The notes beneath the pieces are model-generated. The model saw nothing but the letters and a program-made list of their open reading frames with translations. It did not search any database and was not told the DNA's origin. From a virus, in the UHGV virus genome UHGV-0127686: 39,745 bases of DNA; one strand, 5' to 3'. Every line of letters starts with the position of its first letter. Positions within the stretch are counted from its first letter, which is position 1. Position numbers and translations under genes: made by a program. This document shows, one piece after another, positions 7,186 through 39,653 of the stretch.

Positions 7186-7239
7186 GGTGGATCTCCCTGA
7201 CAAAAGCAGGAATGATGCCATTTGCTCGTTATTTCTGCA

Positions 7240-7625: not shown

Positions 7626-7645
7626 TTTTATTCAGGGTGATTTAT

Positions 7646-12462: not shown

Positions 12463-12480
12463 TTAGTAGGCTCCAGAAAG

Positions 12481-12506
12481 CAAAAAACCCGCCGGGTGGC
12501 GGGTTT
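12481..12506 (-). terminator. rho-independent terminator (bidirectional hairpin) after the cargo operon
   Basis: cccgccgggtggcggg hairpin flanked by an A-run on one side and T-run on the other; overlaps the stop of the 138-aa gene. Confidence 0.65.
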
Positions 12507-12921
12507 ATGAATCGTAGGTTTTCAATTTTTCGAGTTCATCAGGAGGAAGTTCTATGAAGGTTTCCTCTGCTAATTTTATCAGCCGGGGAAGCATCGAATC
12601 AGCTTGCTGATGAGCGTTTGGGCTGATGATTGCCAATATCTGATAGTGTTCATCGATATAAAGATGCTGAGCATATACCAAAAAATTATCACATGTCCGT
12701 TCACTCAGAGATGCTTCTGGAGGCCAGGGTTTATCGCCAGGTAGCTTTAAGTGAATTTTCCTGATGTTGGCAGCCATCGCATCATAGTTACGTTCAAAAC
12801 CGCCTAACGAACCAAAACACCAGAACTGGGAACCCTTTGAAATATAATCGGCAAGCATTTGAGCATACTTATGTGCTGCAGCTAAATGACGCAATTCTCC
12901 CGTGATACTGACTTTTGCCAT
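12505..12921 (-). CDS. hypothetical protein, second gene of a two-gene cargo operon
   Basis: 138 aa, ATG start 1 nt after the upstream gene's stop; no family recognised. Confidence 0.6.
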   Translation of the reverse strand: MAKVSITGELRHLAAAHKYAQMLADYISKGSQFWCFGSLGGFERNYDAMAANIRKIHLKLPGDKPWPPEASLSERTCDNFLVYAQHLYIDEHYQILAIISPNAHQQADSMLPRLIKLAEETFIELPPDELEKLKTYDS

Positions 12922-12922
12922 G

Positions 12923-13495
12923 TCACATCCATTTAGGGGCGTTGGCTCCCAGCATCTTATGCGATGTTGAGATCAGTTCAATAGCCTCTTCACGGGTAAC
13001 ATTATCTGACAAGAGTTCAGCCTGGAAAGGCTGCGATTGCCTAACTTCAGCGGCCAACTGAGTTGCAGTGTTCTCGACGGCGGTCAACGCACGAACATAT
13101 TTGCGTTTTAATGGGCGCAACATTTGCAGATGGCCTTGCCACATAGGGGACCTTTCCGCTTCAGAGAACATATCCACTAAATGTCCTTTAGCATTTCGGC
13201 ATGCCTTGGCAAGACCTTCGAGATGGGATAAAAACTCTTCCGGAAGCTCATCAACAATGATTCTCCCATTTCGAAAAGCTTCGAGATGAGACATGCCTTC
13301 CTTCGCGGTATTTTCGATTTCTTGAGCGCGTGCAGCAATCGCGGTACAACGACGAAATACCTCTTCAGCATCTAATCGTTGTGGCAGTTCACAAGCATTA
13401 GAGATCAGGGGTTTGAAAGCACCGTTAACAGCTTCCTGAACCTGATTCATTTGTTGTGTAATTGTTGCCAGCGCAAATGCGTAGCTAATCGCCAT
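12923..13495 (-). CDS. hypothetical alpha-helical protein with Rx4H motif, first gene of the cargo operon
   Basis: 190 aa from ATG at 13495 with gagg RBS (track ORF begins with TTG at 13501); contains RNAKGH, reminiscent of a HEPN Rx4-6H motif (weak). Confidence 0.55.
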   Translation of the reverse strand: MAISYAFALATITQQMNQVQEAVNGAFKPLISNACELPQRLDAEEVFRRCTAIAARAQEIENTAKEGMSHLEAFRNGRIIVDELPEEFLSHLEGLAKACRNAKGHLVDMFSEAERSPMWQGHLQMLRPLKRKYVRALTAVENTATQLAAEVRQSQPFQAELLSDNVTREEAIELISTSHKMLGANAPKWM

Positions 13496-13663
13496 ACCCA
13501 ATCCCTCTGTCGTTTTAAACGACTATACACCACTTATTCAAAGTTAGCTGAGCGCTAAAAGTTCGCAAAGTTTAGTGATCATGCAACCACCTAGCAAGCG
13601 ATAAAAAATCATTATTTAGTGAATGTGAACAAACTCAACACTATGCAGAAATGTAACTTTTGG

Positions 13664-14017
13664 TTAACCATCAACCTTTTTACACGGGAAGGAGCCGATG
13701 ATTTTCGGTGCATCCATGCTGTTCTGCAGAAGCTGGACGTTCAGGAAACGCGTTTCGGTACCAGGGCGACGAATGAACTCGAAAGCGTAATTGTTACCGT
13801 CTTTGGCTGGCATAAGACCCATATCCGCCTTCATTCCATTACCGTTGCCGAGCGTTTTGATTTTCTGAGAGGTAACTGTCTCACCATTAATCCTGAACAA
13901 TGAATCAGGAATCAACTCTAATTTGTAGCCACCACACTGAAGCGTGATACCGCCAGGATTCGCAGCAAATGCTAACCCCGGAAGGAAACAGAGTCCGATA
14001 ACAATCCACTTTTTCAC
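13664..14017 (-). CDS. secreted small protein (signal peptide, GTG start)
   Basis: MKKWIVIGLCFLPGLAFA followed by ANPGG; GTG start overlapping the stop of the upstream tail gene with gaggt RBS; 117 aa. Confidence 0.6.
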   Translation of the reverse strand: MKKWIVIGLCFLPGLAFAANPGGITLQCGGYKLELIPDSLFRINGETVTSQKIKTLGNGNGMKADMGLMPAKDGNNYAFEFIRRPGTETRFLNVQLLQNSMDAPKIIGSFPCKKVDG

Positions 14018-15084
14018 TATCCTACCTCACGCTGTAAAGACGACGCAGAACGAAGATCCGCCGCGCCACGCGCTTCGCACATCATATCCATGTACCACGC
14101 CTGGCCCCTTGTATCGCCAGTGTACATAATCCCGCGCACAATATAAACGCCATCCGTTGCGATGCTGGCAGGTTGTGCTGTGGTGCCGCTGAGCGTGATA
14201 TTTCCGTCCGTGTTCTGGTCGGTGATCTGCCCACCAGCCATCGCAATATCATTGTTCGACAGCGCGGTGCGGTACACGGAAGCCTGATCCAGCTGAATAA
14301 GCCCGTTAACCCGGATGTTCGGATTAATAAGAGCGCGGACGTTTACACCGTTGCCGATAGTCTGCTGCGGCATGCCGATAAGCCCGGTGGCGCTGTTGAG
14401 CACAATCGCGTCGTGAACATACTCGTTATTCGCCACCATCTGGCGCTGACCGTCCACAAATTGCCATGTTGCGCCACATTGTCCGGCCACGTTATCCATA
14501 AGATGCCGTGTCATGCCGAACAGCACCCGCCCTCGAGGGAATACGGTAGCAGGCATTTCAGGCGTCAGTCCTTCGGTCGCGCCTTTGGCCTCAAAGTCTT
14601 TCATCAGCGCACGGTTCACATCTGCGACCGTGTAACCGGCCGCCAGCGTCTGCGAGGTTATACTGGTGGCAAATGCCAGATCCGTATCTGCTGCCTGAAT
14701 CAGGACATAGGAATCAATAGGGCTGTCTTTTCCTGTGACCGAGTAGCGAATTTCTCCGCTGAAAATCAGCCCGTAGTTGCGGCCATCACTCTGGCCCACA
14801 TCTGCCGCGTCGACTTCGCGCACGGTCCCGACGTCGCTTGCCGCCACCTCCGGCGCGATACCGTCGTAACCGGCAATCAGCCGCACTTTCGAAAACTCCT
14901 GCCCGGTAATTCGGTTCACAGTATCTGCCGAAAGGTTATAAATTTTGATAGTCCCTACCCGGGACGCGCTGCTGATGTTGAACCAGTCGATCGTAAAGGT
15001 GACTTTGAAATCACTTAGCTCAATTCCCTGACCGTTCCCGTCCACAAGCTGCAGCTCGAAATGTCTCATCCAGTTCTGTGACAT
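14017..15084 (-). CDS. tail/baseplate hub protein (P2 gpD-like, tentative)
   Basis: 355 aa, follows the tape measure and two small tail genes; assignment by position and size. Confidence 0.55.
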   Translation of the reverse strand: MSQNWMRHFELQLVDGNGQGIELSDFKVTFTIDWFNISSASRVGTIKIYNLSADTVNRITGQEFSKVRLIAGYDGIAPEVAASDVGTVREVDAADVGQSDGRNYGLIFSGEIRYSVTGKDSPIDSYVLIQAADTDLAFATSITSQTLAAGYTVADVNRALMKDFEAKGATEGLTPEMPATVFPRGRVLFGMTRHLMDNVAGQCGATWQFVDGQRQMVANNEYVHDAIVLNSATGLIGMPQQTIGNGVNVRALINPNIRVNGLIQLDQASVYRTALSNNDIAMAGGQITDQNTDGNITLSGTTAQPASIATDGVYIVRGIMYTGDTRGQAWYMDMMCEARGAADLRSASSLQREVG

Positions 15085-15086
15085 GC

Positions 15087-15389
15087 TTACTCCGTTGATA
15101 CCAGTAAATGACTGCGGCCACCCATATCAGTTTTCGAGGGATAATCCTGTGTGTTGTCATCGCAGACCACCACCAGCTTAAAACCAAGCCCCATACAGGC
15201 GTACTGCGCCAGCAGATCAGCGCCAGTGACGAGAGGAATACCGGAGATTACCGGCTCCCCTCTGTCGTTCTGCAGGTCCATAATCCAGTAAAGATCGCGC
15301 CATATGATGCTAATCTGCCAAGTGACACCACCCAGGACGATGCTGAACTGCTGGTTGTCCGCTGTCAGCGGAATTTCCTGAATTATCAT
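15087..15389 (-). CDS. small tail protein
   Basis: 100 aa, tightly packed between tail genes. Confidence 0.5.
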   Translation of the reverse strand: MIIQEIPLTADNQQFSIVLGGVTWQISIIWRDLYWIMDLQNDRGEPVISGIPLVTGADLLAQYACMGLGFKLVVVCDDNTQDYPSKTDMGGRSHLLVSTE

Positions 15390-15976
15390 TAGCCGCCTCC
15401 CAGTAATGACGCCACGTTACCAGTGATGCTTTTCAGCAGTGAAGTATCTGGAGGCTTTGTGGTTTTGTTGCCGCTGTTCTGTACCGCCGACGTGCTGGCC
15501 CCTTCCTTCATGTTGGTTTTATCCGCGACGGTAATCTGCTGTGTCCGGGAGATAATGACCTCCCTCAGGGTGAGGACGGCGGACAGGACGTTTTCGGTTG
15601 TCTTGTCCGTCGTCACTTCCAGCGCCCGGATCAACATGTTGCTGTACAGCCGTTTACCGGTTACCACATCGAAGGGGATACGGCTTTCCTGCAGATCCAG
15701 TAGCTCCTGATACGTCTGCTGAGGACTCAGGCCGAGCAGGCTGGTAGCCGTCAGATTACTGGCAAAATCCAGCAATGCGCCGCCACCGGCGAAACCAACC
15801 TCCATCACCACTTCTGACGGTTTTTTATAGGCATGATCAGCGACAGCGGCCCCAACCTCTACCGGATGCTCTGTTATTTCAAGCATATCTGTATGCTTCT
15901 CTGAAATAACAACACTGGGAACAATCATTCCTATTTTTCTGCTCTGCTGATGAAAAAGTGTAGAGAGAATATCCAC
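15389..15976 (-). CDS. tail protein (gpU-like, tentative)
   Basis: 195 aa immediately downstream of the tape measure gene. Confidence 0.5.
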   Translation of the reverse strand: MDILSTLFHQQSRKIGMIVPSVVISEKHTDMLEITEHPVEVGAAVADHAYKKPSEVVMEVGFAGGGALLDFASNLTATSLLGLSPQQTYQELLDLQESRIPFDVVTGKRLYSNMLIRALEVTTDKTTENVLSAVLTLREVIISRTQQITVADKTNMKEGASTSAVQNSGNKTTKPPDTSLLKSITGNVASLLGGG

Positions 15977-17964
15977 TAACCCACCCTCACCTGATTACTT
16001 CGCATGACCTGAGCATTTGCAGACTGTTGCCGACGTGCAACCTCATTACCGACAGCGTGCGGATCTCCGCCACCGTAAATGTGGTAAGTATTTTGCTGGT
16101 TAACCTCTGTCATTTTGCCACTAATTCCCGCCACGGCAGCCTTATTAATCAGCTCTCGAGAATAGATATTTCTTCCATTTTCATGCTGGATAATGCTGCT
16201 CATCAATGCTGACATGGTTTGCGGATCGCTCATATTCAGGGCAGCCCGGGGATCCACTCCCAGTCGTTGCGATACAGCCCTGATATACGCAGTTGTGTTG
16301 TTATTATCAGACGCAGGTGCCCAGGTAGAGATAATTTTCTCCACACTGTTTATTCCCCGTCCGGCGTACAGCATTAACTGACGAGCAAGAGCCCGTAATC
16401 CATCAAAAGCAGTTTCAAATCTGGCAAATCGCCCGCCCGGGCGTTCAAGAGAAGCCCCTGCCTGACCAGCAAAATTAAGGTTTCCCGGATTGTTATTCCG
16501 TTCTCCTCGTTTCGTAGCCTGTGCATATTGTTCCGGCTCATCATCACCAAACCAGCCGCGTACCGTCCGGCCCACACTGCGGGGATCGAATCCCCAGTGC
16601 TCTTTAATCCAGTCGGCAGTACTGTTAGCGCTGTCTGTAACCATCGGCATCGCTGACGGATTTTCGCTGCCCTGATTAAGTATCTGTTTGCCGATGCTGA
16701 CGGCATCAGCCCAGCGGCCATCTTTGATAGCGTTGAGCAGGTCGGCGATCATGTTCAGCATTTTGCTGAATTCGCCCATCTGGTCGATGAAGTTGCTGAA
16801 ATCCCACTTCAGGGACCATGATTTGGGGTCAATATTGAGCAGTTTCGCCAGCGCTTTCGCCAGTTCATTAACAGACCCTTTCAGGTCACGAACCATCTTC
16901 AGCGCGGCATCGACCTCCGGCTTCCACTTGCCCCAGTCAATCAGGCTGTCGCCGCCTTCCTTCCAGGTCTGATAGTCCTCCCACAGAAGGGCAATCCCCG
17001 CCGCCAGCGCGGTAATGAGGCCAATCGGCGACATCCAGAACGTACTGTTCAGAATGCGCAGCGCAATCGTCAGCGCGCCAAACAGCGAGATGAGCTCCCG
17101 CGTTTGCTTATCCAGCGATTGCCACCAGGTGATGAGGCCTGATGTTCCTTCAATCAGTCTGAAGAACAGCCGCCCGATAATATCCCCGAGCGCCAGAATG
17201 CCTTTTATGGCTTTCGTCAGGGTCAGCTCGATACGAGGGAAGTTGTCCAGGATATGGCGGCGCAGGGTGTCCAGCGAACCCGCAAGCCCACCCGCAAGAT
17301 TAGAGCCGATTTTGTCACGGGCCATGCCTGCCATCGCGCTAAACTCACGCAGGGAGGTCATAAATTTGTTGGAGCTTCTGGCCGCCTCGTCAGCATTGAA
17401 GCCGATAGCTTTCGCCATTGCGCTGTACTGCCCGGAGAAGCCACCCACACCCCGGCGCATCGCCATAAGGGTATTTTCGTCAATGCCCAGCATCTGCGCA
17501 TACTGGTTAGCCCGGTAATACGGCATGCCGCTGAGCTTCTGGCCTACACCTGTAAAAATAGCGGCCATGTCACGCATGTTACCGCTGGCATCCCGTGTCT
17601 GTACCCCCAGACGATTCAGAAATCCCTCAGCCCCGGGGCTATTACGGATAAAACGGGCAAGGCTCTCCAGTGACCCGCGCGCAGCGTCTGCACTGCCGCC
17701 AACCTGCGAAACCGCATAGCCAATAGACTGAATTCCATGGACCGTCGCGCCGGTGCGCTGTGACGCCCAGTAAAGATTATCCAGACCGGAGGCGATCTTA
17801 GCCGTGAAGGCCACCACGGACAGTGCAGTTCCTTCGACGGCCAGCCCCATTTTGATGACATTTGCAGTTGTACCGGCGAGGACAGAACCGAACTTTTTCG
17901 CTCCTGCATCATCCACACTGAAGCCAAGCGAGACGAGGAAATCTTTAATAGTTTCAGCGTTCAT
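15976..17964 (-). CDS. tail tape measure protein
   Basis: 662 aa from ATG at 17964 with ggagagagg RBS (track ORF begins with TTG); long helical, Ala/Gly-rich with hydrophobic central segments. Confidence 0.8.
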   Translation of the reverse strand: MNAETIKDFLVSLGFSVDDAGAKKFGSVLAGTTANVIKMGLAVEGTALSVVAFTAKIASGLDNLYWASQRTGATVHGIQSIGYAVSQVGGSADAARGSLESLARFIRNSPGAEGFLNRLGVQTRDASGNMRDMAAIFTGVGQKLSGMPYYRANQYAQMLGIDENTLMAMRRGVGGFSGQYSAMAKAIGFNADEAARSSNKFMTSLREFSAMAGMARDKIGSNLAGGLAGSLDTLRRHILDNFPRIELTLTKAIKGILALGDIIGRLFFRLIEGTSGLITWWQSLDKQTRELISLFGALTIALRILNSTFWMSPIGLITALAAGIALLWEDYQTWKEGGDSLIDWGKWKPEVDAALKMVRDLKGSVNELAKALAKLLNIDPKSWSLKWDFSNFIDQMGEFSKMLNMIADLLNAIKDGRWADAVSIGKQILNQGSENPSAMPMVTDSANSTADWIKEHWGFDPRSVGRTVRGWFGDDEPEQYAQATKRGERNNNPGNLNFAGQAGASLERPGGRFARFETAFDGLRALARQLMLYAGRGINSVEKIISTWAPASDNNNTTAYIRAVSQRLGVDPRAALNMSDPQTMSALMSSIIQHENGRNIYSRELINKAAVAGISGKMTEVNQQNTYHIYGGGDPHAVGNEVARRQQSANAQVMRSNQVRVG

Positions 17965-18141
17965 TATCCTCTCTCCATTTCTCAATGCGCCGCTGGTTAT
18001 CCGCTTTTACCGCCAGATGGTCATTCAAGAGAGCAATGTCGTACAAATCGACAGAGCCATCTTTAAGTGCTGTATAAGGAATTAACCCGGCGTCAACCGG
18101 ATTGAGAAGGTAGGACAGCCCGTCCGGCAGGCTGTTAAACG

Positions 18142-18594
18142 TCAGCCCTGTTGCAGGCTCTGCGTCGTGCTGGTAAGGGGTGTAGGCAAAAAATTTCCCA
18201 GCGAATCGGCGACCACCCGCGCCACCAGATGAAGCATGACCAGCAGGTCAATATCATCAAACATCAGTTCGCCCCGGGTAAATACTGGCACCCATCCGTC
18301 CATATGACGCCGCGATACCACCGCAAGACAGGGATGAATAATCGCATCGGTGTCATCTTCGGTCAGGGAAGACAGTTCCTCAGCGATACGCGGGAGCATG
18401 GTTTCAAACACCGGTTTTAACTGCTCGAATTTCACGGTGTCGATTTTGCCATCAGCAGGCAAACGGGAGCGAATGCTCCCGAAATCTGACATCATTCCTG
18501 CCAGCACCGGCAGAAGTTTGCGGGTCACTTTCAGCTGGTCAAAAACGCTGAGTTTTGCCACGCGATATTTCACGCCTTTGATTTCGAATTCCAT
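18142..18594 (-). CDS. tail assembly chaperone (tentative)
   Basis: 150 aa between tube and tape measure genes. Confidence 0.55.
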   Translation of the reverse strand: MEFEIKGVKYRVAKLSVFDQLKVTRKLLPVLAGMMSDFGSIRSRLPADGKIDTVKFEQLKPVFETMLPRIAEELSSLTEDDTDAIIHPCLAVVSRRHMDGWVPVFTRGELMFDDIDLLVMLHLVARVVADSLGNFLPTPLTSTTQSLQQG

Positions 18595-18597
18595 GTA

Positions 18598-19038
18598 TTA
18601 AAACTCCCCGAGAACCTGGTCAATCTTGCCGCAGTCAAACACCCACGGCATCGTATTACCGGTTTTAGCGTTGGCGTTATCCGGTTGTTTCTGGAACGCA
18701 ACACTGCGTGCCGTGATGATGTCGCCGCTGACCTTGTTGCGGATCACGATAACGTTATTCCCCCATGTGGCAGAAGACTGGCTCTGTGCGTTATACGCCA
18801 GCGACAATTTTTTATTTGTCGGTGATGTCTTCAGAAGGTTAACGGTAATCGTCCCGCTTTTATCTGCATGGAGACTGTGCATCACTTCGCCATCAGCACC
18901 GATGGTCATGGTGTTTTTAGGACCGCCCATCGCAACCACAATCCCCTCTTCAGAACTTGCCGAACCGTACCCGAGGTCAATCGAACCGGTCGGCCCGGTC
19001 AGCGTCGCAGTGACATCCATAAAAGAATAGGTAGACAT
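18598..19038 (-). CDS. tail tube protein
   Basis: 146 aa directly after the sheath gene. Confidence 0.65.
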   Translation of the reverse strand: MSTYSFMDVTATLTGPTGSIDLGYGSASSEEGIVVAMGGPKNTMTIGADGEVMHSLHADKSGTITVNLLKTSPTNKKLSLAYNAQSQSSATWGNNVIVIRNKVSGDIITARSVAFQKQPDNANAKTGNTMPWVFDCGKIDQVLGEF

Positions 19039-19048
19039 TCACTTCCCC

Positions 19049-20194
19049 TTAGCGAACAACGTTAATCTGTACGTCAGCGTAATGAACCGCGCCTGCAAGT
19101 TTTATTGCAGCCTGAATCACCGGAGCCTTACGGGCTTCACGTTCTGATTGTGCCTGTTCATCCAGCGGCTGGGCGTATACGTAATAACCTTTGGGCAGCG
19201 TGTCACCTGATGACAACTGACCCAGGTCGCCACCTTTCCATACGCCCGGAGCAATCAGTCCATTCTGAACGGCCTGATCCAGTGATTTTTCAACATTTGA
19301 TAACAGTCGGGTAATACCGGCTTCAGTCTGGGGAACTTTCGTGGTGCTGGTATAAAGCAGGTTATAGAGGCTGGTCTGCACATAATTCTGTAACCAGTCC
19401 AGGCCGTGGCGTTCATCAAAGAAATCGCCGTTAGCCATCACTCCCTGCTGGAGGATAGCTGTATCATTCTGGTAGTACACGAACACATTGCAGTTTTTTG
19501 CATCAAGTGCCGATGCCTGGCTGACTGTCAGTGTTTCATACCCGACCCCCGGCTCCTGCTTAAACTTGAGCGTAATCGCGGTATTACTGCCATTGAAATT
19601 AACCGTGAATGCCCGGCCAAATGCAGATAACGCAGCGTATTTATTACCCGATGAATACTGAATAAAACTGCGTGAATATCCGGCGGTTTTCAGTTTTGAT
19701 GCCAAATCATCTCTGGATGCAGTCTGCAGGCATTTCTCATCGCTTGTCGTAATCGCCAGAATACGGCTTACAGAAGAGGATTCGATCGCCGCAGCCACTT
19801 TCAGCCAGTCTGCATCCGGAATATCTTCATCGTCTGCAATCCCCAGTCCATACCATGAAGTATAATCAAGCATGGCATTCACAGCCTGCTCCAGCGTCTC
19901 AGGCGTGGCCTGTTCGCTGTCTCCCTTCGTTTTCACCCAACGACCGACAAAAACCTCCTGAGGTTTCGGTGATTGTGAGAAAAACACCTGCGCAGCTTTA
20001 TATTCTGGTGATTCCACGCCAAAATCTTTTCCAATATCTTCCGCGGCAGAATAACGACGAATGCGCTCACTTACCGGAATGATTGTGGACGGGCCGAGAA
20101 TGAGTAATGCACCAAAATTTCGCCCTGATGCTGCACGCGGCGACATGATCACATCAACATTAACAACGTTTGATACAGGCAAGCCCTGTGCCAT
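19049..20194 (-). CDS. contractile tail sheath protein
   Basis: 381 aa, first gene of the tail block; sheath-like size and composition. Confidence 0.7.
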
Positions 20195-20197
20195 AGC

Positions 20198-20764
20198 TTA
20201 ATCTCCGAAAAAGATGACTGGTGCTTCCACCAGCGATTTAATACCGTACTCGCGCACAACCTTCCGGCGCAGGCACACCGTCATATCGTAGCGGCGGACC
20301 CATTGCTGATTAATAAGTTCAGGGAAGGGAGTCAGACCTGTGTAATCGCCAAGAGACAGCCCCAGCGCATTCAGTGCTGCATTGTTCTGCGGCACAGATA
20401 TACCGTCACGAAACCGGGACGCATACACCATCCCCGCCGGTCCATAAAACGAAGCCATACACTCAATCGTTTCATGCCGCCAGAGCTGAGAGCCATCATC
20501 GGTCTGTCTGGTGAATGCCGGACTGTCATCACCTGACCATCCGATAACCCCAAACGCACACCAGTTCGTTTCAACCGGTAGCAGTGGCGGCTGCTCTTTC
20601 TGCCAGCGCGGGCGAACCATCCCGGCAGACAAACCGGAAACGTTACGCATCCACTGGCTTAACAGCCTGTCGAGCGCTTCGTCATAATCCGGATCGCCAC
20701 TGGTTGGTATTAACCATCCGCGCTCTGTACTGGTGTTATTGCTCAACCGGAGTTCCTCCATCAA
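20198..20764 (-). CDS. head-tail joining / tail completion protein (tentative)
   Basis: 188 aa between head and tail blocks. Confidence 0.45.
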   Translation of the reverse strand: MMEELRLSNNTSTERGWLIPTSGDPDYDEALDRLLSQWMRNVSGLSAGMVRPRWQKEQPPLLPVETNWCAFGVIGWSGDDSPAFTRQTDDGSQLWRHETIECMASFYGPAGMVYASRFRDGISVPQNNAALNALGLSLGDYTGLTPFPELINQQWVRRYDMTVCLRRKVVREYGIKSLVEAPVIFFGD

Positions 20765-21125
20765 ACGGCATCAACTCACAATGCGCCTGAACGAATCCGG
20801 CCCCATAAGCTGTATACGGGTCGACGAAGGTCACACGATAATCACGGCCCTGATACGTCACGATATCGGCATCACGGCCAGTCTGTCCCTGCGTCAGTCG
20901 CTCAGTCGTCACAATCAGAATTGCACCGCTGATTACCTGCCCTGCCTGCATACGGCGGTTTTCCAGAGAGCGATCAACAGTTACGACTCCGGCAAACTGC
21001 TTTTTAACTTCACTGTCGCTGCCGATCCCGTCCTCATCCACCGTTTGCACTCGGCGTGTTACCCACAAATTGAAGTCGCAAAAATCGGGGTCAAAAAGCA
21101 CATCTGTTACATCAAGAGTCGGCAT
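20736..21125 (-). CDS. head-tail connector / neck protein (tentative)
   Basis: 129 aa; overlapping neighbours. Confidence 0.45.
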   Translation of the reverse strand: MPTLDVTDVLFDPDFCDFNLWVTRRVQTVDEDGIGSDSEVKKQFAGVVTVDRSLENRRMQAGQVISGAILIVTTERLTQGQTGRDADIVTYQGRDYRVTFVDPYTAYGAGFVQAHCELMPFDGGTPVEQ

Positions 21126-21666
21126 CTTTATCCCTCACTACATGGGTAATAGCTCTGCGATATTGCCCGGTGTCAATTAATGGTTTCGCCAGATCGGTTC
21201 CGGGAGATTCGCCAGCAACACGCCGGGCAAGTTCCAGTGTTGCCCCCTTGCGCCCCCGACGAGCCCGGGCTTCAACAGTGCTGTCAGCAAGCGGCGTAAA
21301 GCCGGTAATAGTCATGTAACGCCTGACGCCATTAGCAGCCAGCGTTCCGGCACGGTTGAGTGCGCGTTCTGCTCCCGCAGCATTACCATCAAGAGCAGCC
21401 TGTGCCGCGGTTTTGAGCTGCGGCACCGTCTGCTCTTCTGCCGATTTAACGCCGGGGACCAGGTGAGGTCGTGGCGGGATGTTCTGCTCTGGTGAGCCGT
21501 ATTCGTTGAGGTAACCGATGCCCGCATTACCAAACGGAACATCATCCCGCCCGCTGTCTTCCGAAGGGATGCCGACCAGCACATCTTTTTTGGTTAACGA
21601 CCTGAGCGCATCCAGAATGGCCTTAGCGTTATCCACCCTCGTTGTTACACCGCTTTTGAAACTCAT
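21112..21666 (-). CDS. head completion protein (tentative)
   Basis: 184 aa, Ala/Arg-rich. Confidence 0.45.
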
Positions 21667-22073
21667 AGCTGGCGACCGCCTGCACCGAACATCGTGATCA
21701 ACTGATAAAATTCAGCGCCATATCGGGTGTTATTCCAGAAACCTGCATCAGGATTCAGCGTCGCGCTGGTGTCATAGCTGACGCTTACCTTATCCACGGA
21801 CTTTGAGGACTGAACACCATTGGTTGAACCGCCCGGACCACCAGCCAGCATCGCTCTGCTGTCTGCCGCCCAGAGCGTCATGTAGTGCGCAACGAACAAT
21901 CCGGCAAAGTACGGAAACAACTTTTTGCCGGTGACGTTTTCACTCAGCAGTTCATCGGCCAGATTCAGACGGAACCCGATTTGGGCGTCGGGATATTTTG
22001 CCGGGTCAGCAAACTGCGGGAAGTCGCGGCGAAAATCACTTACCGCTGGCAGACTTTGATTCTTTGGCATCTT
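21663..22073 (-). CDS. head-tail connector family protein (tentative)
   Basis: 136 aa from internal ATG (MPKNQSL...). Confidence 0.45.
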
Positions 22074-22404
22074 TAGCCCCATTACCGCCAGTCCGGGCGG
22101 CAGTAATCTGCGCCTGCAGGCTGTCGTTCTGCTCCTGCAGTTTGAGCAATGCATCTTTCAGATCGGCAATCAGCTTATCTTTGTCGGCAATCTGCGCTTG
22201 CAGGCCGTCGATAATGGGTTGCAGATCATCGGTGTCGCTAATCACGCTTTCGGAAAGCTCAGAGTGCGCCTGGGTGAACCAGTGCGACGCGACCTCTTCC
22301 GGTACGTTATGCCGTCCCCGGCCAAACTCCTGTTTTGACTGATCGCCGAGCGTCAGCGTAAACGGGGTGTGAACATGGATGGTAACCAGCTTTTCTTTCG
22401 CCAT
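22036..22404 (-). CDS. small coiled-coil protein downstream of the major capsid gene
   Basis: 122 aa from ATG at 22404 with aaggaa RBS (MAKEKLV...); the longer track ORF is an upstream extension in the capsid gene's 3' end. Confidence 0.55.
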
Positions 22405-22444
22405 TTCAGTTTCCTTCAGGCCCCTTTCGGGGCCATTCTGGTTA

Positions 22445-23386
22445 TCAGATACCGTCCACATAGGACAGAGTTTCTTTATACACTGGCTCGACTGCACCCA
22501 GCTTGCCGTAGTAAGTGACGATCTGATACAGACCGCGATACTGCACCGGCACGCTCTGAAGCGGAACCAGCGGGTAGCGGACGTATTTTTTATCGTTGGT
22601 GTACGCAACCATGCGATCCTTATTCCCCACACCACGGCCTTTCAGCCATTTAACCGCGCGGATATTCAGCGGAACACCGTTCTGGTGATAGCTGATGGTG
22701 TTGGTCTGAAGGTACGTCAACAGGGACTGGTTACCCGCAGATGAAACGATGATGCTGGACAACAGAGCAAACTGCTCAGGCGGGATCAGCAAATCACGCG
22801 GAACCACAGAGTAACCGGAAGCGGCCCACGCATCAGACAGCACCTGGTTAATGCTTGCGCGGATTTCGTCCGGTGTTGAGGTTGCCCACGTTTTGGCAGC
22901 GTTGTTGACAGGCACGCCGTCCAGGGTAACAAGGCCTTTCAGGTTTAATGCGGAATCGCCAACATACACCTGTTCATCGTTATCCATCTGCCATTTCAGT
23001 TGCATCCCGTCATACTTCTGCGTATCAATCGGGCGTCCGACCTGCTGAGCAGCCTGCAATTCTATGACCGTCCAGCCAAGTTCCATCCCCCACAGGTTCA
23101 GCGGGTTACCGGATTTGCCGATATCCACGTTCACGCCAGCAATAGCGGTTGAGTCTTTGCCTACCCAGTTTTTGCCATTCGGATTTGCACCAGTACCCGC
23201 AGCGGCGAAGCTGGTATTCGTCCAGCTGGAAATGTCATCTGCGATGGAGACATCTTCACGCAGTTGGATATCGCGGGTCCAGGTGTACCCCACCAGTGGC
23301 AGATTCAGCGTCTGGTCGAGTCGCTCCAGCTCCCCGATGAGAAAGACACCAGAGCTGTCAACGGTTGCCTGATCAAAAGTAATCAT
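22445..23386 (-). CDS. major capsid protein
   Basis: 313 aa, follows the decoration-like and protease/scaffold genes. Confidence 0.7.
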   Translation of the reverse strand: MITFDQATVDSSGVFLIGELERLDQTLNLPLVGYTWTRDIQLREDVSIADDISSWTNTSFAAAGTGANPNGKNWVGKDSTAIAGVNVDIGKSGNPLNLWGMELGWTVIELQAAQQVGRPIDTQKYDGMQLKWQMDNDEQVYVGDSALNLKGLVTLDGVPVNNAAKTWATSTPDEIRASINQVLSDAWAASGYSVVPRDLLIPPEQFALLSSIIVSSAGNQSLLTYLQTNTISYHQNGVPLNIRAVKWLKGRGVGNKDRMVAYTNDKKYVRYPLVPLQSVPVQYRGLYQIVTYYGKLGAVEPVYKETLSYVDGI

Positions 23387-23397
23387 TCGTCTGTTCC

Positions 23398-23904
23398 TTA
23401 AATCTTCCAGGAAATTTCTGCATTGCCGTTAGCATCACCGGCACCTGTGAATTCAGCGTTGGTCAGCACCACGTTTTTGCCACTGACTGACGTGGACATG
23501 AATCCACCCAGCGGCACTTTGATGGATTCATCAGTGGAGACGACAACGTATACCGGGTCGCCTTTTTTGATGGTGCTGGCATCAAAATCAGAACCGAGAT
23601 TAACGGTCACGTAGCCACGTTTCATGGCGTCGCCCGGGAAGTTCTTGCCACTCCCCACCTGGCGAACCATGTCCGGCTGCGAAGTGGTCGGATAAGGGCG
23701 CACGTAGATCCCCTTCACCTTGTCTGCGGTATCACCATCTGCCAGCGGCACGAAAAAACCGTCATCATCGTATTTACCAGCCAGCCCATAGGCAGCGAAG
23801 GCGTTATCGGATTTAAGGACCACCGGTTCGACGGTTAAGTCCTGCGGGCGAGAGACAGCCCCGGCAATGCCAACAGGCATCCGGTACAGAAATACATTAT
23901 TCAT
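23398..23904 (-). CDS. capsid-associated structural protein (decoration-like, tentative)
   Basis: 168 aa immediately upstream of the major capsid gene. Confidence 0.45.
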   Translation of the reverse strand: MNNVFLYRMPVGIAGAVSRPQDLTVEPVVLKSDNAFAAYGLAGKYDDDGFFVPLADGDTADKVKGIYVRPYPTTSQPDMVRQVGSGKNFPGDAMKRGYVTVNLGSDFDASTIKKGDPVYVVVSTDESIKVPLGGFMSTSVSGKNVVLTNAEFTGAGDANGNAEISWKI

Positions 23905-23907
23905 TTT

Positions 23908-25128
23908 TTACCCTTTACGGTTTGCCCAGAATTCAGCGTTTTGTTTGTTCAGGGAAGCGATACTGGTCATGCCCATGTTTGGGCGCTGTGCATCGCCGGT
24001 GGTGGCGCGGGTGTTTCGCCCTTTGGCAATCTCAGACACGGCATTAAACGCCATGTCGACCGATTGTTTCGGTAATTTGCGGATATCCGCATCACCGACT
24101 ATCTGGCGAACCAGCGTTTTGTCAGCAGAAGCCAGAACCTCGCGTTTGAACGTGGTCGGTTTCATCTTACGGCTCAGATCGATACCCGGAACGATAACTT
24201 CGGCACGCCAGGCTGAGTCACCAGTAATCGTGGTTTCCTCTTCATCGTCCTCGCCGTCACCGGTCGGATTATCGTCAGGCTTATTGTCGTTATCGCCCGT
24301 CGCATTTCCTTCCAGCTTAGCCAGCAGGGCTTTCAGTAATGTTTTGAGGTCATCATCACTGTCGCCGGTTGGACTTCCGCCCATCTCTGGTGCTTTGTCC
24401 GGTAGCGGTTGCTGCGGGGACAGGTTGATGTTGAGATTAACGCCCTGCGGCAAATCCCCCTCATCTCCTGTAACCGATGCGGGAGCCGACTCCACCAGTT
24501 CGTTCATGGTGTCGGCATCTCCTGTCTTGATGGCCGCACGCATGCGGTTCCACCAGTTTTTCTTTTGATTTGCCATTGTGTCTCTGTCTCCAATTGCACA
24601 ACGATTTCCGGCTCTGCCTTTAGGGACAAGAGCCACATGGTTTCCGGTAATATCGACCTGCTCAGCTTTACCTGGCTCGGTCTGCTCGTACTCCGCGTCA
24701 TAGCCGCACGACACTTCGCGCAGGCCATCTTCGATAAGCTGAATGGCGTTTTCGTCTTTGACGATAAGGTCAGCCAGCATCAAATCAGACTGCTCACCCG
24801 TCCCGCGCCGGACATTCTGGAGGTGCCCGACAGCAAGCTCTTTCCAGTTCTCGGGATTTACCAGCCGCACATTCCCGTTTTCATCTTCAGGATGCAGAAT
24901 CGTGATGCTCATCCCTTCGAATGAGGCAAGCGTGGCCGGATGGAATACCTGCTCAGGAGAACGCGTGACGACTATTTCACCGAACTTATCGGGTTTCAGT
25001 TTTGGCAGGTCATCAGCACCATAGAGCTGCTTACCTGTTCGTCCTATCGGCACGTCTCTGCACAGCAACGAGCCGTCAGCCAGCTGATAGCGGGTTTCCC
25101 CCAGCCGGGTATTGAAAAAATATTTCAT
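23908..25128 (-). CDS. prohead protease / scaffold-like protein (DUF2213-like)
   Basis: 406 aa; N-terminal region resembles the DUF2213 putative prohead protease; central acidic low-complexity stretch (GDSDDD, DDNPTGDGEDDEEE) typical of scaffolds. Confidence 0.55.
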   Translation of the reverse strand: MKYFFNTRLGETRYQLADGSLLCRDVPIGRTGKQLYGADDLPKLKPDKFGEIVVTRSPEQVFHPATLASFEGMSITILHPEDENGNVRLVNPENWKELAVGHLQNVRRGTGEQSDLMLADLIVKDENAIQLIEDGLREVSCGYDAEYEQTEPGKAEQVDITGNHVALVPKGRAGNRCAIGDRDTMANQKKNWWNRMRAAIKTGDADTMNELVESAPASVTGDEGDLPQGVNLNINLSPQQPLPDKAPEMGGSPTGDSDDDLKTLLKALLAKLEGNATGDNDNKPDDNPTGDGEDDEEETTITGDSAWRAEVIVPGIDLSRKMKPTTFKREVLASADKTLVRQIVGDADIRKLPKQSVDMAFNAVSEIAKGRNTRATTGDAQRPNMGMTSIASLNKQNAEFWANRKG

Positions 25129-34581: not shown

Positions 34582-35958
34582 TCATACGTCAGCCCCTTGT
34601 GCATATCGTCTGCCACGAGCAGCAGGTGCATTTGATGCTGTGCAAATCTGTCTGGCTTCATCCTGGTCACATGCAACAAAGTGTCCGTTGCAGAACCGCT
34701 GGTAAACCGTACCAAGTGAGCCAAAACGGTTTTTCGTCACGATGATTTCAGCAAATGGCGCGGCCCTACTGTTCTCGTCATATACCGCTTCCCGATAGAG
34801 CATGATGATTGAGTCTGCGTCCTGTTCAATGCTTCCTGAATCACGCAAATCTGCGTTTGTCGGGCGTTTGTTTGGTCGCTTCTCAACATCGCGCGAAAGT
34901 TGACTTAGGGAGATAACAGGCGTTTTCAGGTCTTTCGCCATCGCCTTCAGGCTTCCTGAGATGTGAGCAATTGCGAGGTCGTTGCGGTCTGCTTTCGGCT
35001 TCTCAATCAGGCCAAGATAATCCGCCATGATGAGTGACAGGTTTGGATTTTCCTGTTTGTGCCGTTCTGCGATTGAGCGAATTTCTTCGACCGATAACCG
35101 CGAGGCATCGACTACCCATACATCCAAATCTGCAAGCTGACTCATGCCGTTAGCAACACATGCCCAGCCCTCGTCATCCATCGATGCAGGATTTCGCAGT
35201 ACGCTAACCGACATCCTCCCGGCGTTGGCAATGCTTCGCTCTGCAATCTGCAATGCGCTCATTTCCATTGAGAAAATCAATACCCCGCGCCGGACGTCAG
35301 AACCAGGAATAACGCGGCTTGCAACGCCTTCGGCAATCTTCAGCGCCAGTTCGGTTTTCCCCATACCAGGACGAGCAGCGATTATCACCAGGTCTTCCGC
35401 GTTCATCCCTCCGGTGATGGCATCAAGTTCTTCGATTCCGGTCTTCAGGGTATCTGACTCTTCTCCGTTCCTCAGACGCCTGTCAAGCGTGTCAGTGTAG
35501 TCGGTGATGATTTCCCCTAACCGTACAGGTTTAACCTCGTCACGGGGCTTTCTGATGGCTGAAAGACGCTTTACAAGCTCATCCATCGCCTGACTCGATG
35601 CGTCGATGGTTCCGCTCTGAATTGGTTCACGCATTTCATCCATGATTTCCAGCACCAGACGGCGGTGATAGTTATCCGCGACCATTCCGGCATATCCCTT
35701 CAGGTTTGCGGCACTCGGGCAGTTTTTGCTGGTCATCAGGATTGACGTGAAATGCTCCTCTCCGCACGCCTCGGCGACCATCAGCGCGTCGATTAAATTT
35801 CTGTTTCGCGCCTGCTTGCGGATAACCTCGAAGGCTTTCCGGTAGAGCGGAATTGAAAACGCTTCCGGCTCAAGCGTTGCCAGAACGTCACTGGCAGTTG
35901 GTGTTAATCCACCAATCAGCAGGCCACCGATAACGCTCGCTTCGATATCCTGTTTCAT
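34582..35958 (-). CDS. DnaB-family replicative helicase (phage-encoded)
   Basis: Walker [10 protein letters not shown], Walker B region [10 protein letters not shown], DnaB N-terminal domain; occupies the lambda P position. Confidence 0.9.
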
Positions 35959-36776
35959 GCAATCCCCCTGTCTGCAAACTTCCCTTCACGAACTCCCGTT
36001 AACGAATCTTCTCTCAGCAGGTAATCAAAATCAGCCGTCCAGCCCGTGTCGTTGTCTCCGAAGTAAAACGGCTTGGCCTGATGCACAAACGCCCTGACAT
36101 ACGCTCTGAAACCGTCCACGTTTGGCGTTTTCAGTTGCGGGATGATTTTCTTCAGGCGGCGTTTTCGTTTCTCGTTGACCGCAACAGCGTGTGGAAGTCT
36201 GTCACCGACTTCGGTGTTGTAGGCGTTCAGGAAGGATTCGTAGTCGATTCGTTCTGCCTTGCGACGTTCAGGTTTAACCTGCCCATCGCCGCCCCCGTTA
36301 GGGGGTAAGGGGGTATTTGTATTTATTGTCTTTTGTATATTGTCTTTTGTGTTTAGCTGACTTGGCTTATACCCATTAGCCGACTTGGCTAATGTTTTAT
36401 TAGCTGTTTTAGCTAATGTTAAGCTGTCCTGGCTAATCCACTGAGAAACCACCTTGTTCACTCCGATTTTCACGCCATCAGCAATGAGGAATTTACGCTC
36501 AATAAGCTGGCGCTTGGCAGCGCAAACATGAGTGTGATGAATACCTGTCATGGCTGCTATCTGCGTGTTTGTGAGTCGATCCATCGGCTTATTGAATCCG
36601 TATGTCTTGCGCATGATAGCGAGCATCACCTTCAACTGCCGGACGGTTAAATCAGCCATCAGCAGACTGTCGGTAATCTCGTTAGCAACGCGCATGAAAC
36701 CATCTTCGGTATCTGCCACGCGATGCTCCACGACCTCCAGTTGAGGCCTGTAATCAGCTAACTTAACGACGCCCAT
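35955..36776 (-). CDS. replication initiator O-like protein
   Basis: N-terminal [37 protein letters not shown] resembles lambda O; iterons lie within the gene. Confidence 0.8.
36296..36445. repeat. replication origin: four iteron-like repeats plus AT-rich tract inside the O gene
   Basis: Repeats of the form tagc(t/c)g(a/t)(c/t)ttggct(a/t)at at roughly 22-bp spacing, adjacent to duplicated ttgtcttttgt AT-rich block. Confidence 0.6.
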
Positions 36777-37355: not shown

Positions 37356-37565
<210 letters not shown>

Positions 37566-37582: not shown

Positions 37583-37646
37583 TATCACCGCTAGAGGTAA
37601 AATAGTCAACACGCACGGTGTTAGATATTTATCCCTCGCGGTGATA
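37583..37646. promoter_or_regulatory. OR1-OR2-OR3 operators with divergent PR and PRM
   Basis: Three 17-bp operators: OR1 tatcaccgcTagaggta, OR2 caacacgcacggtgtta, OR3 tatccctCgcggtgata; lambda-like apart from one base each in OR1 and OR3 (capitalised). Confidence 0.9.
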
Positions 37647-37653
37647 GATTTAA

Positions 37654-38370
<717 letters not shown>

Positions 38371-38456
38371 GTCCGCAGCAAGAGACTTTATACGCATCTA
38401 GATGTAGGAAATAAAAAAGAAGATCCCTACAATAAAAATAAGGAAATCATTAAGAT

Positions 38457-39362
38457 ATGTCGATTAACAGCAATAGCGAATCCCTGCATCAAATGCAGCT
38501 TTTCCCTGTAGTAGAGGTTGTTTCTGATGATATTCCTATGGGCGTTCTCAATGATGGAACTCCTTACCTAACTCTCTACGGTCTCGCAAAGTTATGCGGC
38601 ATTGATGACACGCCACTGAGGGTGTTCACATCAAACTGGAACACAGAGAAAAACAAACCCAGAGGTCAAAAAGTAGCTGCGTATTTAGCTGAGAAAGGGT
38701 TTCATAACGTCGAAAAGCTATACACTCGCGTTTTAAATAGCTCAAACGTGGAAACTCATGCTTATCCTGACTATGTTTGCATGGCTATCCTCCGTTACTA
38801 CGCTCTAGATGCCACCAATTTTGATAGGTCAGTCGCAATAGGTAATTTTGTTCGCTTGGCTGAGTACACGCTTAAGCGAATGATTTATGAAAAGTCAAAT
38901 TACAACCCAAATGCTTCAATAGATATCTCATTCGAGAACTATAGAGCAAGGATTAAGCTAAACGATCAGATACCGACAACTCATTTTGCAGTATTCAGAG
39001 AGATAGCTGACATTGCCATGAACCTGATCGGAGGAGGATTCCCAATGGATGACACCACATCTTTGGATGGAAGTGTTGGAATTCACTGGGGAAAGTATTG
39101 GACAGCTAATGGGCTATCTGAGAAATTCGGGGAAAGGGTGCAGTACCCACATTTATTCCCCGAAAATTACAGGCAGTCAGCTGCAAATAAGCATATAACA
39201 GCTTGGATTTATCCTATTGAGGCACTTGGCGTGTTCAGAAAATGGCTACACGATAATTACGCAATGGAAAAACTGCCAAATTACCTTGGGAACAAAAAGA
39301 TTAGTAACGCCTCCGAGCTATTAGAGTCGATAAAAAAACCAGCACTCCCAAATAAGCATTGA
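38457..39362 (+). CDS. hypothetical 301-aa protein in the rexA/rexB position
   Basis: ATG at 38457 with aaggaaa RBS; AT-rich; no resemblance to lambda RexA or RexB as recalled; N-terminal third loosely resembles a Bro-N/KilA-N-type domain (tentative). Confidence 0.8.
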   Translation: MSINSNSESLHQMQLFPVVEVVSDDIPMGVLNDGTPYLTLYGLAKLCGIDDTPLRVFTSNWNTEKNKPRGQKVAAYLAEKGFHNVEKLYTRVLNSSNVETHAYPDYVCMAILRYYALDATNFDRSVAIGNFVRLAEYTLKRMIYEKSNYNPNASIDISFENYRARIKLNDQIPTTHFAVFREIADIAMNLIGGGFPMDDTTSLDGSVGIHWGKYWTANGLSEKFGERVQYPHLFPENYRQSAANKHITAWIYPIEALGVFRKWLHDNYAMEKLPNYLGNKKISNASELLESIKKPALPNKH

Positions 39363-39372
39363 TCTCCACCAC

Positions 39373-39399
39373 AACCCGGCATCTGCGCCGGGTTTTCTT
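39373..39399 (+). terminator. rho-independent terminator (tImm-like)
   Basis: cccggc/gccggg stem with short loop followed by ttttctttg, 11 nt after the stop. Confidence 0.75.
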
Positions 39400-39551
39400 T
39401 GCCTAACGCCCCCCAAAAAACGCATAACCAATTGTATTTATTTCAAAATTAATAGATACAACTCACTAAATATCGCAATTCAGATCTCTCGATCACCTTC
39501 CCAATCCACACAACCCTGCAAAAAATAAATCTATATAAAAAACATACAGAT

Positions 39552-39613
39552 AACCATCTGCGGTGATAAATTATCTCTGGCGGTGTTGACATAAATACCA
39601 CTGGCGGTGATAC
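39552..39613 (+). promoter_or_regulatory. OL3-OL2-OL1 operators with PL promoter
   Basis: aaccatctgcggtgata, tatctctggcggtgttg and taccactggcggtgata with TTGACA -35 and GATACT -10, matching lambda as recalled; transcription exits the right edge. Confidence 0.92.
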
Positions 39614-39653
39614 TAAGCACATCAGCAGGACGCACTGACCACCATGAAGGTGA

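What the first reader, a model, noticed from the sequence alone, without database searches (positions are those of the whole stretch)
38371..39400. rexA/rexB exclusion locus replaced by a single unrecognised 301-aa gene
In lambda the interval between cI and the OL/PL operators carries rexA and rexB, the classic prophage-encoded exclusion system co-transcribed with the repressor. Here the flanks (cI, terminator, OL3-OL1, PL, nutL) are lambda-like but the interval holds one AT-rich 301-aa ORF unlike RexA or RexB, with its own RBS and a terminator 11 nt downstream. Synteny predicts a lysogen-expressed defence or exclusion protein of a possibly undescribed type.
Basis: partly seen in the sequence, partly recalled or inferred. 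Interest (0 to 1): 0.75.

Follow-up and report, generated by a model that had tools for sequence, protein, structure and literature searches.

The report
Known BstA prophage defence gene
The gene sitting where lambda keeps rexA/rexB is bstA, a prophage abortive-infection defence gene described in 2021, and this copy has the same protein as the E. coli version tested in that study, so the finding is correct but not new.

Summary
A 301-aa ORF (38457..39362, +) lies between a lambda-type cI and a hairpin terminator, OL and PL, replacing rexA/rexB.

It is not unrecognised. It matches the BstA abortive-infection family over its full length (PHROG 6287, E=6e-133; PADLOC BstA, E=1e-105). It is 42% identical to BstA of Salmonella prophage BTP1.

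Its protein is 100% identical to BstA-Ec of E. coli NCTC10963, which Owen et al. 2021 (PMC8585504) cloned and tested. Window 38371-39423 differs from their primer-to-primer module by one base, in a C-run downstream of the terminator. That module gave phage defence and, when moved into P22, cognate self-immunity.

The claim of an undescribed type is wrong.

One result may go beyond the paper. In 61 non-redundant bstA loci, exact direct repeats of 6 nt or more, 56 or 57 bp apart, straddle the start-codon region in 17 and 20 loci. Every other spacing scores 0-8 loci. The repeat words differ between lineages. In the window they are ATCCCT at 38423 and 38480, which predicts the unmapped aba-Ec element at 38423-38485.

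Verdict: already known; interest low.

The parts
37622..37650 (+). PRM promoter (TAGATA ... TAGATT). It is the presumed source of the cI-bstA transcript in the lysogen. Context only.
   Evidence: Read directly. Corresponds to the PRM annotation in the 99.4%-identical CL707 record. Co-transcription is inferred and not shown.
37657..38370 (+). Lambda-type cI repressor gene, immediately upstream of bstA on the same strand.
   Evidence: Peptidase_S24 and HTH_3. About 95% DNA identity to the lambda immunity flanks.
38371..39423 (+). Stretch equivalent to the bstA-Ec module that Owen et al. amplified from E. coli NCTC10963 (primers NW_761/764 and NW_762/765) and tested.
   Evidence: Forward primer matches exactly at 38371-38394. 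Internal sequencing primer NW_790 matches exactly at 38553-38576. The reverse primer site at 39401-39423 has one extra C. The 1052-bp NCTC10963 stretch (L095) differs from the window by a single C in the run at 39409-39414.
38423..38485 (.). Predicted aba-Ec (anti-BstA self-immunity DNA element), 63 bp. It is bounded by the direct repeat ATCCCT at 38423-38428 and 38480-38485 (57 bp apart, at -34 and +24 relative to the ATG). Extended words are aGATCCCTaCA and gAATCCCTgCA.
   Evidence: Same position and span as the 63-bp BTP1 aba, whose terminal CCCGCC repeats are 56 bp apart. A 56/57-bp repeat spacing is strongly enriched across 61 bstA loci (binomial P about 1e-12 to 1e-16). The location is inferred. 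Owen et al. showed only that the whole bstA-Ec locus carries a cognate aba.
38440..38444 (+). Shine-Dalgarno-like AAGGA of bstA, inside the conserved core ATAAGGAAATCA.
   Evidence: Read. This core is the only conserved stretch of the otherwise unalignable 5' region between the window and ZH063 alleles.
38457..39362 (+). bstA coding sequence (301 aa plus stop). In the model, the N-terminal domain covers about residues 17-146 and the C-terminal BstA_C domain about residues 157-291.
   Evidence: PHROG 6287 'BstA abortive infection system, replication inhibitor', E=6e-133, residues 5-301. PADLOC BstA, E=1.3e-105. 42% identity to BTP1 BstA over the full length. 100% identical to the NCTC10963 and 2012C-4431 proteins. 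AlphaFold model with pLDDT 84.6 and two domains. PF26567 BstA_C is recorded on this protein and its homologues.
39373..39400 (+). Rho-independent terminator (AACCCGGC-ATCTGC-GCCGGGTT followed by TTCTTT). It is the counterpart of the lambda Timm terminator.
   Evidence: Terminator scan. Annotated as Timm in CL707. [quoted passage not shown]

Best explanation
The interval carries the bstA-aba system, a single-gene abortive-infection defence encoded by prophages. bstA lies directly downstream of cI with no intervening promoter-like or terminator-like site, so it is presumably transcribed from PRM in the lysogen (inferred). Published results for BstA (most mechanistic work was done on BstA-BTP1, and defence and cognate immunity were also shown for the identical BstA-Ec): when a sensitive phage starts lytic DNA replication, BstA forms foci that colocalise with the phage DNA and blocks its replication. 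The infected cell still lyses but releases no progeny, which protects the population. The prophage escapes its own protein on induction through aba, a short DNA element at the 5' end of the locus that acts as DNA and only on its cognate BstA. My inference is that aba-Ec is the 63-bp stretch 38423-38485, defined by two ATCCCT words 57 bp apart. I also infer that the N-terminal winged-helix/KilA-N-like domain is the part of the protein matched to it.
For: Family assignment: PHROG 6287 E=6e-133 over the full length; PADLOC BstA E=1e-105; 42% identity to BstA-BTP1 across 300 residues; PF26567 BstA_C on this protein and its homologues.

Identity with the tested allele: the exact protein is encoded on NCTC10963 contig CAADJH010000002.1 at the coordinates given in Owen's Table S1. 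The cloned module differs by 1 nt in 1053. Three published primers match.

Published function (PMC8585504): BstA-Ec expressed in Salmonella LT2 gave defence comparable to BstA-BTP1. P22 carrying the bstA-Ec locus became immune specifically to BstA-Ec. BstA-BTP1 blocks phage and P22-phagemid DNA replication.

Synteny: repressor, then bstA, then terminator, as in BTP1 and in Proteus, Enterobacter and E. coli relatives.

aba inference: direct repeats of 6 nt or more at 56 or 57 bp spacing occur in 17 and 20 of 61 non-redundant loci, against a background mean of 1.7 loci per spacing. The words are lineage-specific but sit at the same position.

Cassette evidence: the window and ZH063 alleles differ at 79 nt in codons 1-100 but at only 5 nt in codons 101-301, and their upstream spacers are unalignable.

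Confidence: 0.93

Rival explanations
1. A new, undescribed exclusion system that merely occupies the rexAB slot.
For: Local Pfam-A and NCBIfam gave no family. Many database copies are still named 'hypothetical protein'.
Against: There are full-length, very strong matches to curated BstA profiles. The protein is 100% identical to the published, tested BstA-Ec. The empty Pfam result most likely reflects the local library copy, because PF26567 BstA_C is precomputed on this protein and on its homologues.
Confidence: 0.01
2. A DNA-binding regulator or virulence-modulating accessory protein whose main role is not phage defence. The BTP1 homologue was first named st313-td and was linked to virulence and anti-virulence phenotypes.
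For: Owen et al. cite phenotypic reports implicating bstA in Salmonella virulence. The N-terminal half resembles winged-helix/APSES DNA-binding domains.
Against: Stop-codon and heterologous-expression experiments show a direct protein-level defence phenotype for three homologues, including this one. No regulatory target is known. The conserved cognate self-immunity element makes sense only for an activity that harms the phage itself.
Confidence: 0.04
3. The gene is present but not functional as a defence in this prophage (silent, decaying or unexpressed cargo).
For: Disrupted copies exist. In E. coli ECO2947 an IS1 sits between cI and bstA and the 5' end is missing. Truncated cluster members also occur.
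Against: Here the ORF is intact. RBS, terminator and 5' repeats are identical to the tested allele. The exact protein is indexed in 1445 blocks of the assembly collection.
Confidence: 0.02

Closest known systems
BstA-Ec with its cognate aba (E. coli NCTC10963, locus tag E4V89_RS07420; Owen et al. 2021, Cell Host Microbe 29:1620, PMC8585504)
   Same: The protein is 100% identical. The whole cloned locus (spacer, RBS, CDS, terminator) is identical except for one C in a homopolymer run after the terminator. Both sit downstream of a lambda-type cI with Cro upstream.
   Different: Nothing of substance differs within the locus. The NCTC10963 locus held here was compared only over about 2.3 kb, so the rest of that prophage was not compared. 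The window's prophage has a myovirus-type tail module and a rep_O plus DnaB-helicase replication module.
BstA-BTP1 / aba-BTP1 (Salmonella Typhimurium D23580 prophage BTP1, gene st313-td)
   Same: Same family with full-length alignment. Same position downstream of the CI-like repressor. Same two-domain layout. Same 63-bp span between terminal direct repeats that straddle the start codon.
   Different: Only 42% amino-acid identity. The repeat word is CCCGCC at 56 bp spacing, against ATCCCT at 57 bp. The aba elements are not cross-reactive: BstA-Ec restricts BTP1.
Lambda RexA/RexB
   Same: Same genomic slot (cI to Timm/OL). Presumably the same PRM-driven lysogenic expression. Both are abortive-infection systems of a prophage.
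   Different: No sequence relationship. One protein instead of two. Rex is reported to act by membrane depolarisation, whereas BstA blocks phage DNA replication. BstA has a DNA-based self-immunity element.
Phage CL707 immunity-region ORF CL70704 (EF120459; Degnan et al. 2007, Mol Microbiol 64:232)
   Same: Identical protein, and a 99.4% identical immunity region with lambda immunity specificity. The rexAB replacement at this site was therefore already sequenced and deposited in 2007.
   Different: It was annotated only as 'hypothetical protein'. Function was assigned later, by Owen et al.
KilA-N / APSES and winged-helix DNA-binding domains (Mbp1, Bqt4, DdrC N-terminal domain)
   Different: No significant sequence match to any Pfam KilA-N model. 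Foldseek against the PDB found nothing.

Membership tests
BstA abortive-infection family | Full-length sequence homology to BstA profiles | tested here: met
   PHROG 6287 E=6e-133, residues 5-301 against profile positions 3-304 of 304. PADLOC BstA E=1.3e-105. BLASTP against BstA-BTP1: 42% identity, E=5e-84.
BstA abortive-infection family | Two-domain architecture with a C-terminal BstA_C domain (PF26567) | tested here: met
   The AlphaFold model has two well-folded halves with a confidence dip at residues 151-160. This matches the boundary near residue 155 that Owen et al. inferred. PF26567 is listed for this protein and for nearly all homologues. The local Pfam scan found no family for this protein.
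BstA abortive-infection family | N-terminal KilA-N(-like) DNA-binding domain | tested here: inconclusive
BstA abortive-infection family | Location immediately downstream of, and co-oriented with, the prophage repressor, with its own RBS and terminator | tested here: met
   cI ends at 38370, bstA starts at 38457, terminator at 39373-39394. The same layout occurs in BTP1 and in other relatives.
BstA abortive-infection family | Cognate aba DNA element at the 5' end of the locus that confers self-immunity | tested here: inconclusive
   The DNA is identical over the 5' region to the NCTC10963 locus that conferred BstA-Ec-specific immunity on P22. The ATCCCT repeat pair at -34/+24, 57 bp apart, mirrors the essential CCCGCC pair of BTP1 aba, and the spacing is family-wide. 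The exact element is predicted and has not been mapped.
BstA abortive-infection family | Phage-defence phenotype by abortive infection with inhibition of phage DNA replication | not testable with these tools
   Published for the identical protein (plaque assays in LT2). Published mechanistically for BstA-BTP1.
Lambda RexAB exclusion system | Homology to RexA and/or RexB | tested here: not met
   No RexA or RexB family in Pfam, PHROGs or PADLOC. Lambda DNA aligns only to the cI and OL/PL flanks.
Lambda RexAB exclusion system | Position between cI and Timm/OL, expressed with cI in the lysogen | tested here: met
   The position is confirmed. Expression is inferred only. This is a positional analogue and not a family member.

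The most novel reading that the evidence does not exclude
The aba self-immunity element may be a family-wide bipartite DNA site and not a BTP1 peculiarity. It would consist of two copies of a lineage-specific 6-12-bp word, spaced exactly 56-57 bp and straddling the bstA start-codon region. The word would encode the cognate specificity, and the first ~100 codons (most of the N-terminal DNA-binding domain) would be exchanged together with it as a recombination cassette. In this window the words are ATCCCT at 38423 and 38480. I did not find this generalisation in Owen et al. 2021, nor any follow-up study of aba in the library searched. It gives a direct way to map every aba and to test whether BstA binds aba through its N-terminal domain.
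Probability: 0.6. Interest if true: 0.45.

Novelty: already known. Interest (0 to 1): 0.2.

Why it matters
As a gene finding it adds nothing new. It re-identifies an experimentally characterised defence gene, and the rexAB replacement was already deposited in 2007 (phage CL707). It does show that reasoning from synteny at the cI-OL slot works.

The useful by-product is comparative. The conserved 56/57-bp spacing of lineage-specific repeats, and the co-transfer of these repeats with the N-terminal ~100 codons, bear on a question Owen et al. left open: how aba DNA recognises its cognate BstA. They yield a concrete 63-bp candidate for the unmapped aba-Ec.

Tried and rejected
- Pfam-A and NCBIfam scans returned nothing. 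I judged this a gap in the local library copy and not evidence of novelty, because PF26567 BstA_C is precomputed on this protein and on its homologues.
- The published reverse primer did not match with up to 3 mismatches. The cause was a 1-nt homopolymer indel.
It was rerun without that row.
- Degnan et al. 2007 is not held in the library.
- Literature searches for later mechanistic work on BstA or aba found only citing papers.
- Protein-level 19-residue repeat as the cause of the 57-bp signal: rejected. Many loci use 56 bp, and in the window the first copy is upstream of an in-frame stop codon.
- Dam-methylation (GATC) explanation for the repeat words: attractive for enterobacterial loci but not general. 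BTP1 uses CCCGCC and alphaproteobacterial loci use AAGGAAATC.
- The published bstA-Kp primers did not match phage RCIP0114 exactly. It is a close relative and not the same allele.

Full report
**1. Observation**

The window carries a lambda-type immunity region in reverse orientation.
- cro is at 37356..37556 (-), cII is upstream of it, and cI is at 37657..38370 (+). These carry the Pfam families Cro, Phage_CII, and Peptidase_S24 + HTH_3.
- After an 86-nt spacer with 33% GC comes an ATG-initiated ORF at 38457..39362 encoding 301 aa.
- A terminator-like hairpin at 39373..39394 followed by TTCTTT begins 11 nt after the stop codon.
- OL3, OL2, OL1 and PL (TTGACA-17-GATACT, 39586..39614) follow.
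- Lambda and its relatives align at about 95% identity only to the cI and OL/PL flanks, covering 52% of the query, so the rexA-rexB interval is replaced.
- The ORF has 41.9% GC against 49.6% for the whole window.

Every factual element of the finding is confirmed.

**2. What the gene is**

- PHROGs gives one family: phrog_6287, 'BstA abortive infection system, replication inhibitor', E=6e-133, covering residues 5-301.
- PADLOC gives BstA with E=1.3e-105.
- The local Pfam-A and NCBIfam copies give nothing. However, the precomputed Pfam annotation lists PF26567 (BstA_C) on this protein and on nearly all of 116 homologues. RefSeq now names some copies 'BstA C-terminal domain-containing protein'.
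- The protein is 42% identical over its full length to BstA of Salmonella prophage BTP1. In BTP1 the gene also lies between the CI-like repressor and N.

**3. Identity with the experimentally tested allele**

Owen et al. [quoted passage not shown] BstA-Ec came from E. coli NCTC10963, contig NZ_CAADJH010000002.1, positions 1520985-1521881.
- Their cloning primer GTCCGCAGCAAGAGACTTTATACG matches window 38371-38394 exactly.
- Their sequencing primer matches 38553-38576 exactly.
- Their reverse primer matches 39401-39423 except for one extra C in the window.
- An exact-sequence look-up found the window's 301-aa protein on that same NCTC10963 contig at those coordinates (L095).
- The primer-to-primer module is 1052 bp in NCTC10963. 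It differs from window 38371-39423 by that single C, in the run at 39409-39414.
- The protein is also identical to WP_000026554.1 of E. coli O178:H19 2012C-4431, another entry in their Table S1.
- It is identical to the 'hypothetical protein' CL70704 of phage CL707, deposited with Degnan et al.'s 2007 survey of lambda-immunity phages.

The finding interval is therefore, base for base apart from that one C, a locus that has been cloned and assayed.

**4. How it works (published results, with my inferences marked)**

[quoted passage not shown] It also restricted BTP1. It was slightly less active than BstA-BTP1 against coliphages.
- BstA-BTP1 protects against lambda, phi80, P1 and T7, but not against T4 or T5.
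- Defence is abortive. Infected cells lyse without releasing progeny. BstA foci colocalise with phage DNA. Phage and P22-phagemid DNA replication is blocked. Lysogenisation is unaffected.
- Self-immunity comes from aba. In BTP1 this is a 63-bp DNA element spanning -29 to +34 around the start codon. It acts as DNA, and in trans it was effective only from a high-copy plasmid, not as a single chromosomal copy. It depends on terminal CCCGCC direct repeats.
- Each homologue has its own cognate aba. P22 carrying the bstA-Ec locus became immune only to BstA-Ec.
- Inferred here: expression from PRM. No promoter-like or terminator-like site lies between cI and bstA on the + strand.
- Inferred here: relevance of self-immunity for this prophage. 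Its replication module is a Phage_rep_O protein plus a DnaB-type helicase. From my own knowledge this resembles the P22 type, whose replicon was BstA-sensitive in Owen's phagemid experiment.

**5. Structure**

An AlphaFold model built from a 49-sequence alignment has mean pLDDT 84.6 and two domains, roughly residues 17-146 and 157-291. Confidence dips at residues 151-160. This agrees with the domain boundary near residue 155 that Owen et al. inferred.

These hits fit the 'KilA-N(-like)' label but do not prove it. From the aligned lengths I attribute them to the N-terminal half. The C-terminal half has no convincing structural neighbour, so the effector mechanism remains open.

**6. Beyond the paper: where aba-Ec probably is**

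A genome scan with a family alignment returned 80 bstA loci. I anchored each locus on the conserved MGVLxDGTP codons and removed near-duplicates, leaving 61 loci. I then looked for exact direct repeats of 6 nt or more in the 170 bp upstream of the anchor, at every spacing from 20 to 110 bp.
- Spacing 56 bp scored 17 loci and spacing 57 bp scored 20 loci.
- All other spacings scored 0-8 loci, with a mean of 1.7.
- The binomial P is about 1e-12 and 1e-16 respectively. This ignores shared ancestry, so it overstates independence. However, by my count at least a dozen different words are involved.

The repeat words are lineage-specific but positionally fixed:

| Locus | Repeat word(s) | Position relative to ATG | Spacing |
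|---|---|---|---|
| Window | ATCCCT | -34 / +24 (38423 and 38480) | 57 bp |
| BTP1 | CCCGCC(A) | -28 / +29 | 56 bp |
| E. coli ZH063 allele | GATCTCAG / GATCGCAG | about -35 / +22 | 57 bp |
| Enterobacter | CAGATCCC | about -37 / +20 | 57 bp |
| Serratia L9 | GATCGCCA | about -29 / +27 | 56 bp |
| BstA-Kp-like phage RCIP0114 | TGGTCA | -31 / +26 | 57 bp |
| Another Klebsiella allele | AGAACAGCT | -33 / +23 | 56 bp |
| Many alphaproteobacteria | AAGGAAATC | varies | 56-57 bp |

- A protein-level repeat cannot explain the pattern. A 56-bp spacing is out of frame, and in the window the first copy lies upstream of an in-frame stop codon.
- The window's 38423-38485 stretch is 63 bp long, the same span as the BTP1 aba.
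- The two E. coli alleles support a cassette. The window type is in 10 complete genomes and the ZH063 type in 23. They differ at 79 nt in codons 1-100, with an unalignable upstream spacer, but at only 5 nt in codons 101-301.
- So the aba region and most of the N-terminal domain appear to have been exchanged together. This is what one would expect if that domain reads aba.
- Owen et al. do not report this generalisation, and I found no follow-up study of aba in the library searched.

I put about 0.6 on the repeats being the specificity-bearing ends of aba-Ec.

**7. Comparison and verdict**

- The locus is a member of the BstA-aba family, and specifically the BstA-Ec allele.
- It is a positional and functional analogue of lambda RexAB, not a relative of it.
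The claim of an unrecognised or undescribed gene does not hold.
- Novelty: already known. Interest: low (0.2). The small uplift is for the family-wide aba architecture and the concrete 63-bp prediction.

Noticed in passing
window 38423-38428 and 38480-38485; loci L002-L104: Direct repeats exactly 56 or 57 bp apart straddle the start-codon region in 37 of 61 non-redundant bstA loci. The words are lineage-specific. This matches the terminal-repeat layout of the BTP1 aba element.
   Followed up: yes
window 38422-38425; L003, L005, L006, L007, L018, L086-L088 around -35 and +22 of bstA: In most enterobacterial bstA loci the repeat words contain GATC (the Dam methylation site, from my own knowledge). 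The window has GATC only in the upstream copy. The variable base just after GATC aligns with the base whose mutation inactivates BTP1 aba. Hemimethylation of replicating DNA might relate to aba working in trans only from high-copy DNA. The pattern is not general: BTP1 and alphaproteobacterial loci lack GATC.
   Followed up: partly
window 38371-38756 versus L003 (E. coli ZH063) 2830-3247: There is a sharp mosaic boundary near codon 100 of bstA between two E. coli alleles: 79 nt differences before it and 5 after it. Both alleles sit behind a 237-aa LexA-family (cI-like) repressor, and ZH063 and 2012C-4431 share the same repressor protein, WP_001274755.1.
   Followed up: partly
L004 (E. coli ECO2947) 2248-3083: An IS1A element is inserted between cI and bstA. 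The bstA match starts only at the equivalent of window 38540. This is a natural copy lacking the 5' end and the predicted aba.
   Followed up: no
window 38484-38498: A 6-bp-stem hairpin (CTGCA-TCAAA-TGCAG, then CTTTTCCC) lies inside codons 10-14, directly after the second repeat. The scan flagged it as terminator-like. The ZH063 allele has a different 5-bp hairpin (AGGGT-GAATT-ACCCT) at the same place, read.
   Followed up: no
window 34582-36776 (-) and 6919-25000: The prophage is a mosaic. It combines lambda immunity with a Phage_rep_O protein plus a DnaB-type helicase (not lambda O/P, from my own knowledge). Its contractile-tail structural module is 97% identical to the vB_EcoM-611R5/606R2 phages and related to Salmonella SEN34.
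   Followed up: partly
window 6631-7221 (-): A resolvase/invertase-family gene (Resolvase + HTH_7) lies next to the tail-fibre region. Related phages annotate a 'DNA invertase' there, which suggests invertible tail fibres.
   Followed up: no
window 345-6570 (+): The left end is not covered by the phage matches. It holds a YfjS/YafY lipoprotein-domain ORF, two ORFs with no Pfam family (811-1278 and 4438-5070), and a LEM-3-like GIY-YIG nuclease-domain ORF (5746-6570). This could be host flank or other cargo.
   Followed up: no
bstA residues 165-276 (window about 38949-39284): The C-terminal domain has many invariant polar and aromatic residues across 49 homologues: R165, E182, D204, S206, G208, W211, W215, R227, H232, Q240, Y252, W263, Y268 and Y276. 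It has no structural neighbour. These residues could form an active or ligand-binding site of unknown type.
   Followed up: no
tool libraries: The local Pfam-A scan found no family for this protein, although PF26567 (BstA_C) is precomputed for it and for its homologues. A '0 families' result for similar genes should therefore not be read as novelty.
   Followed up: yes
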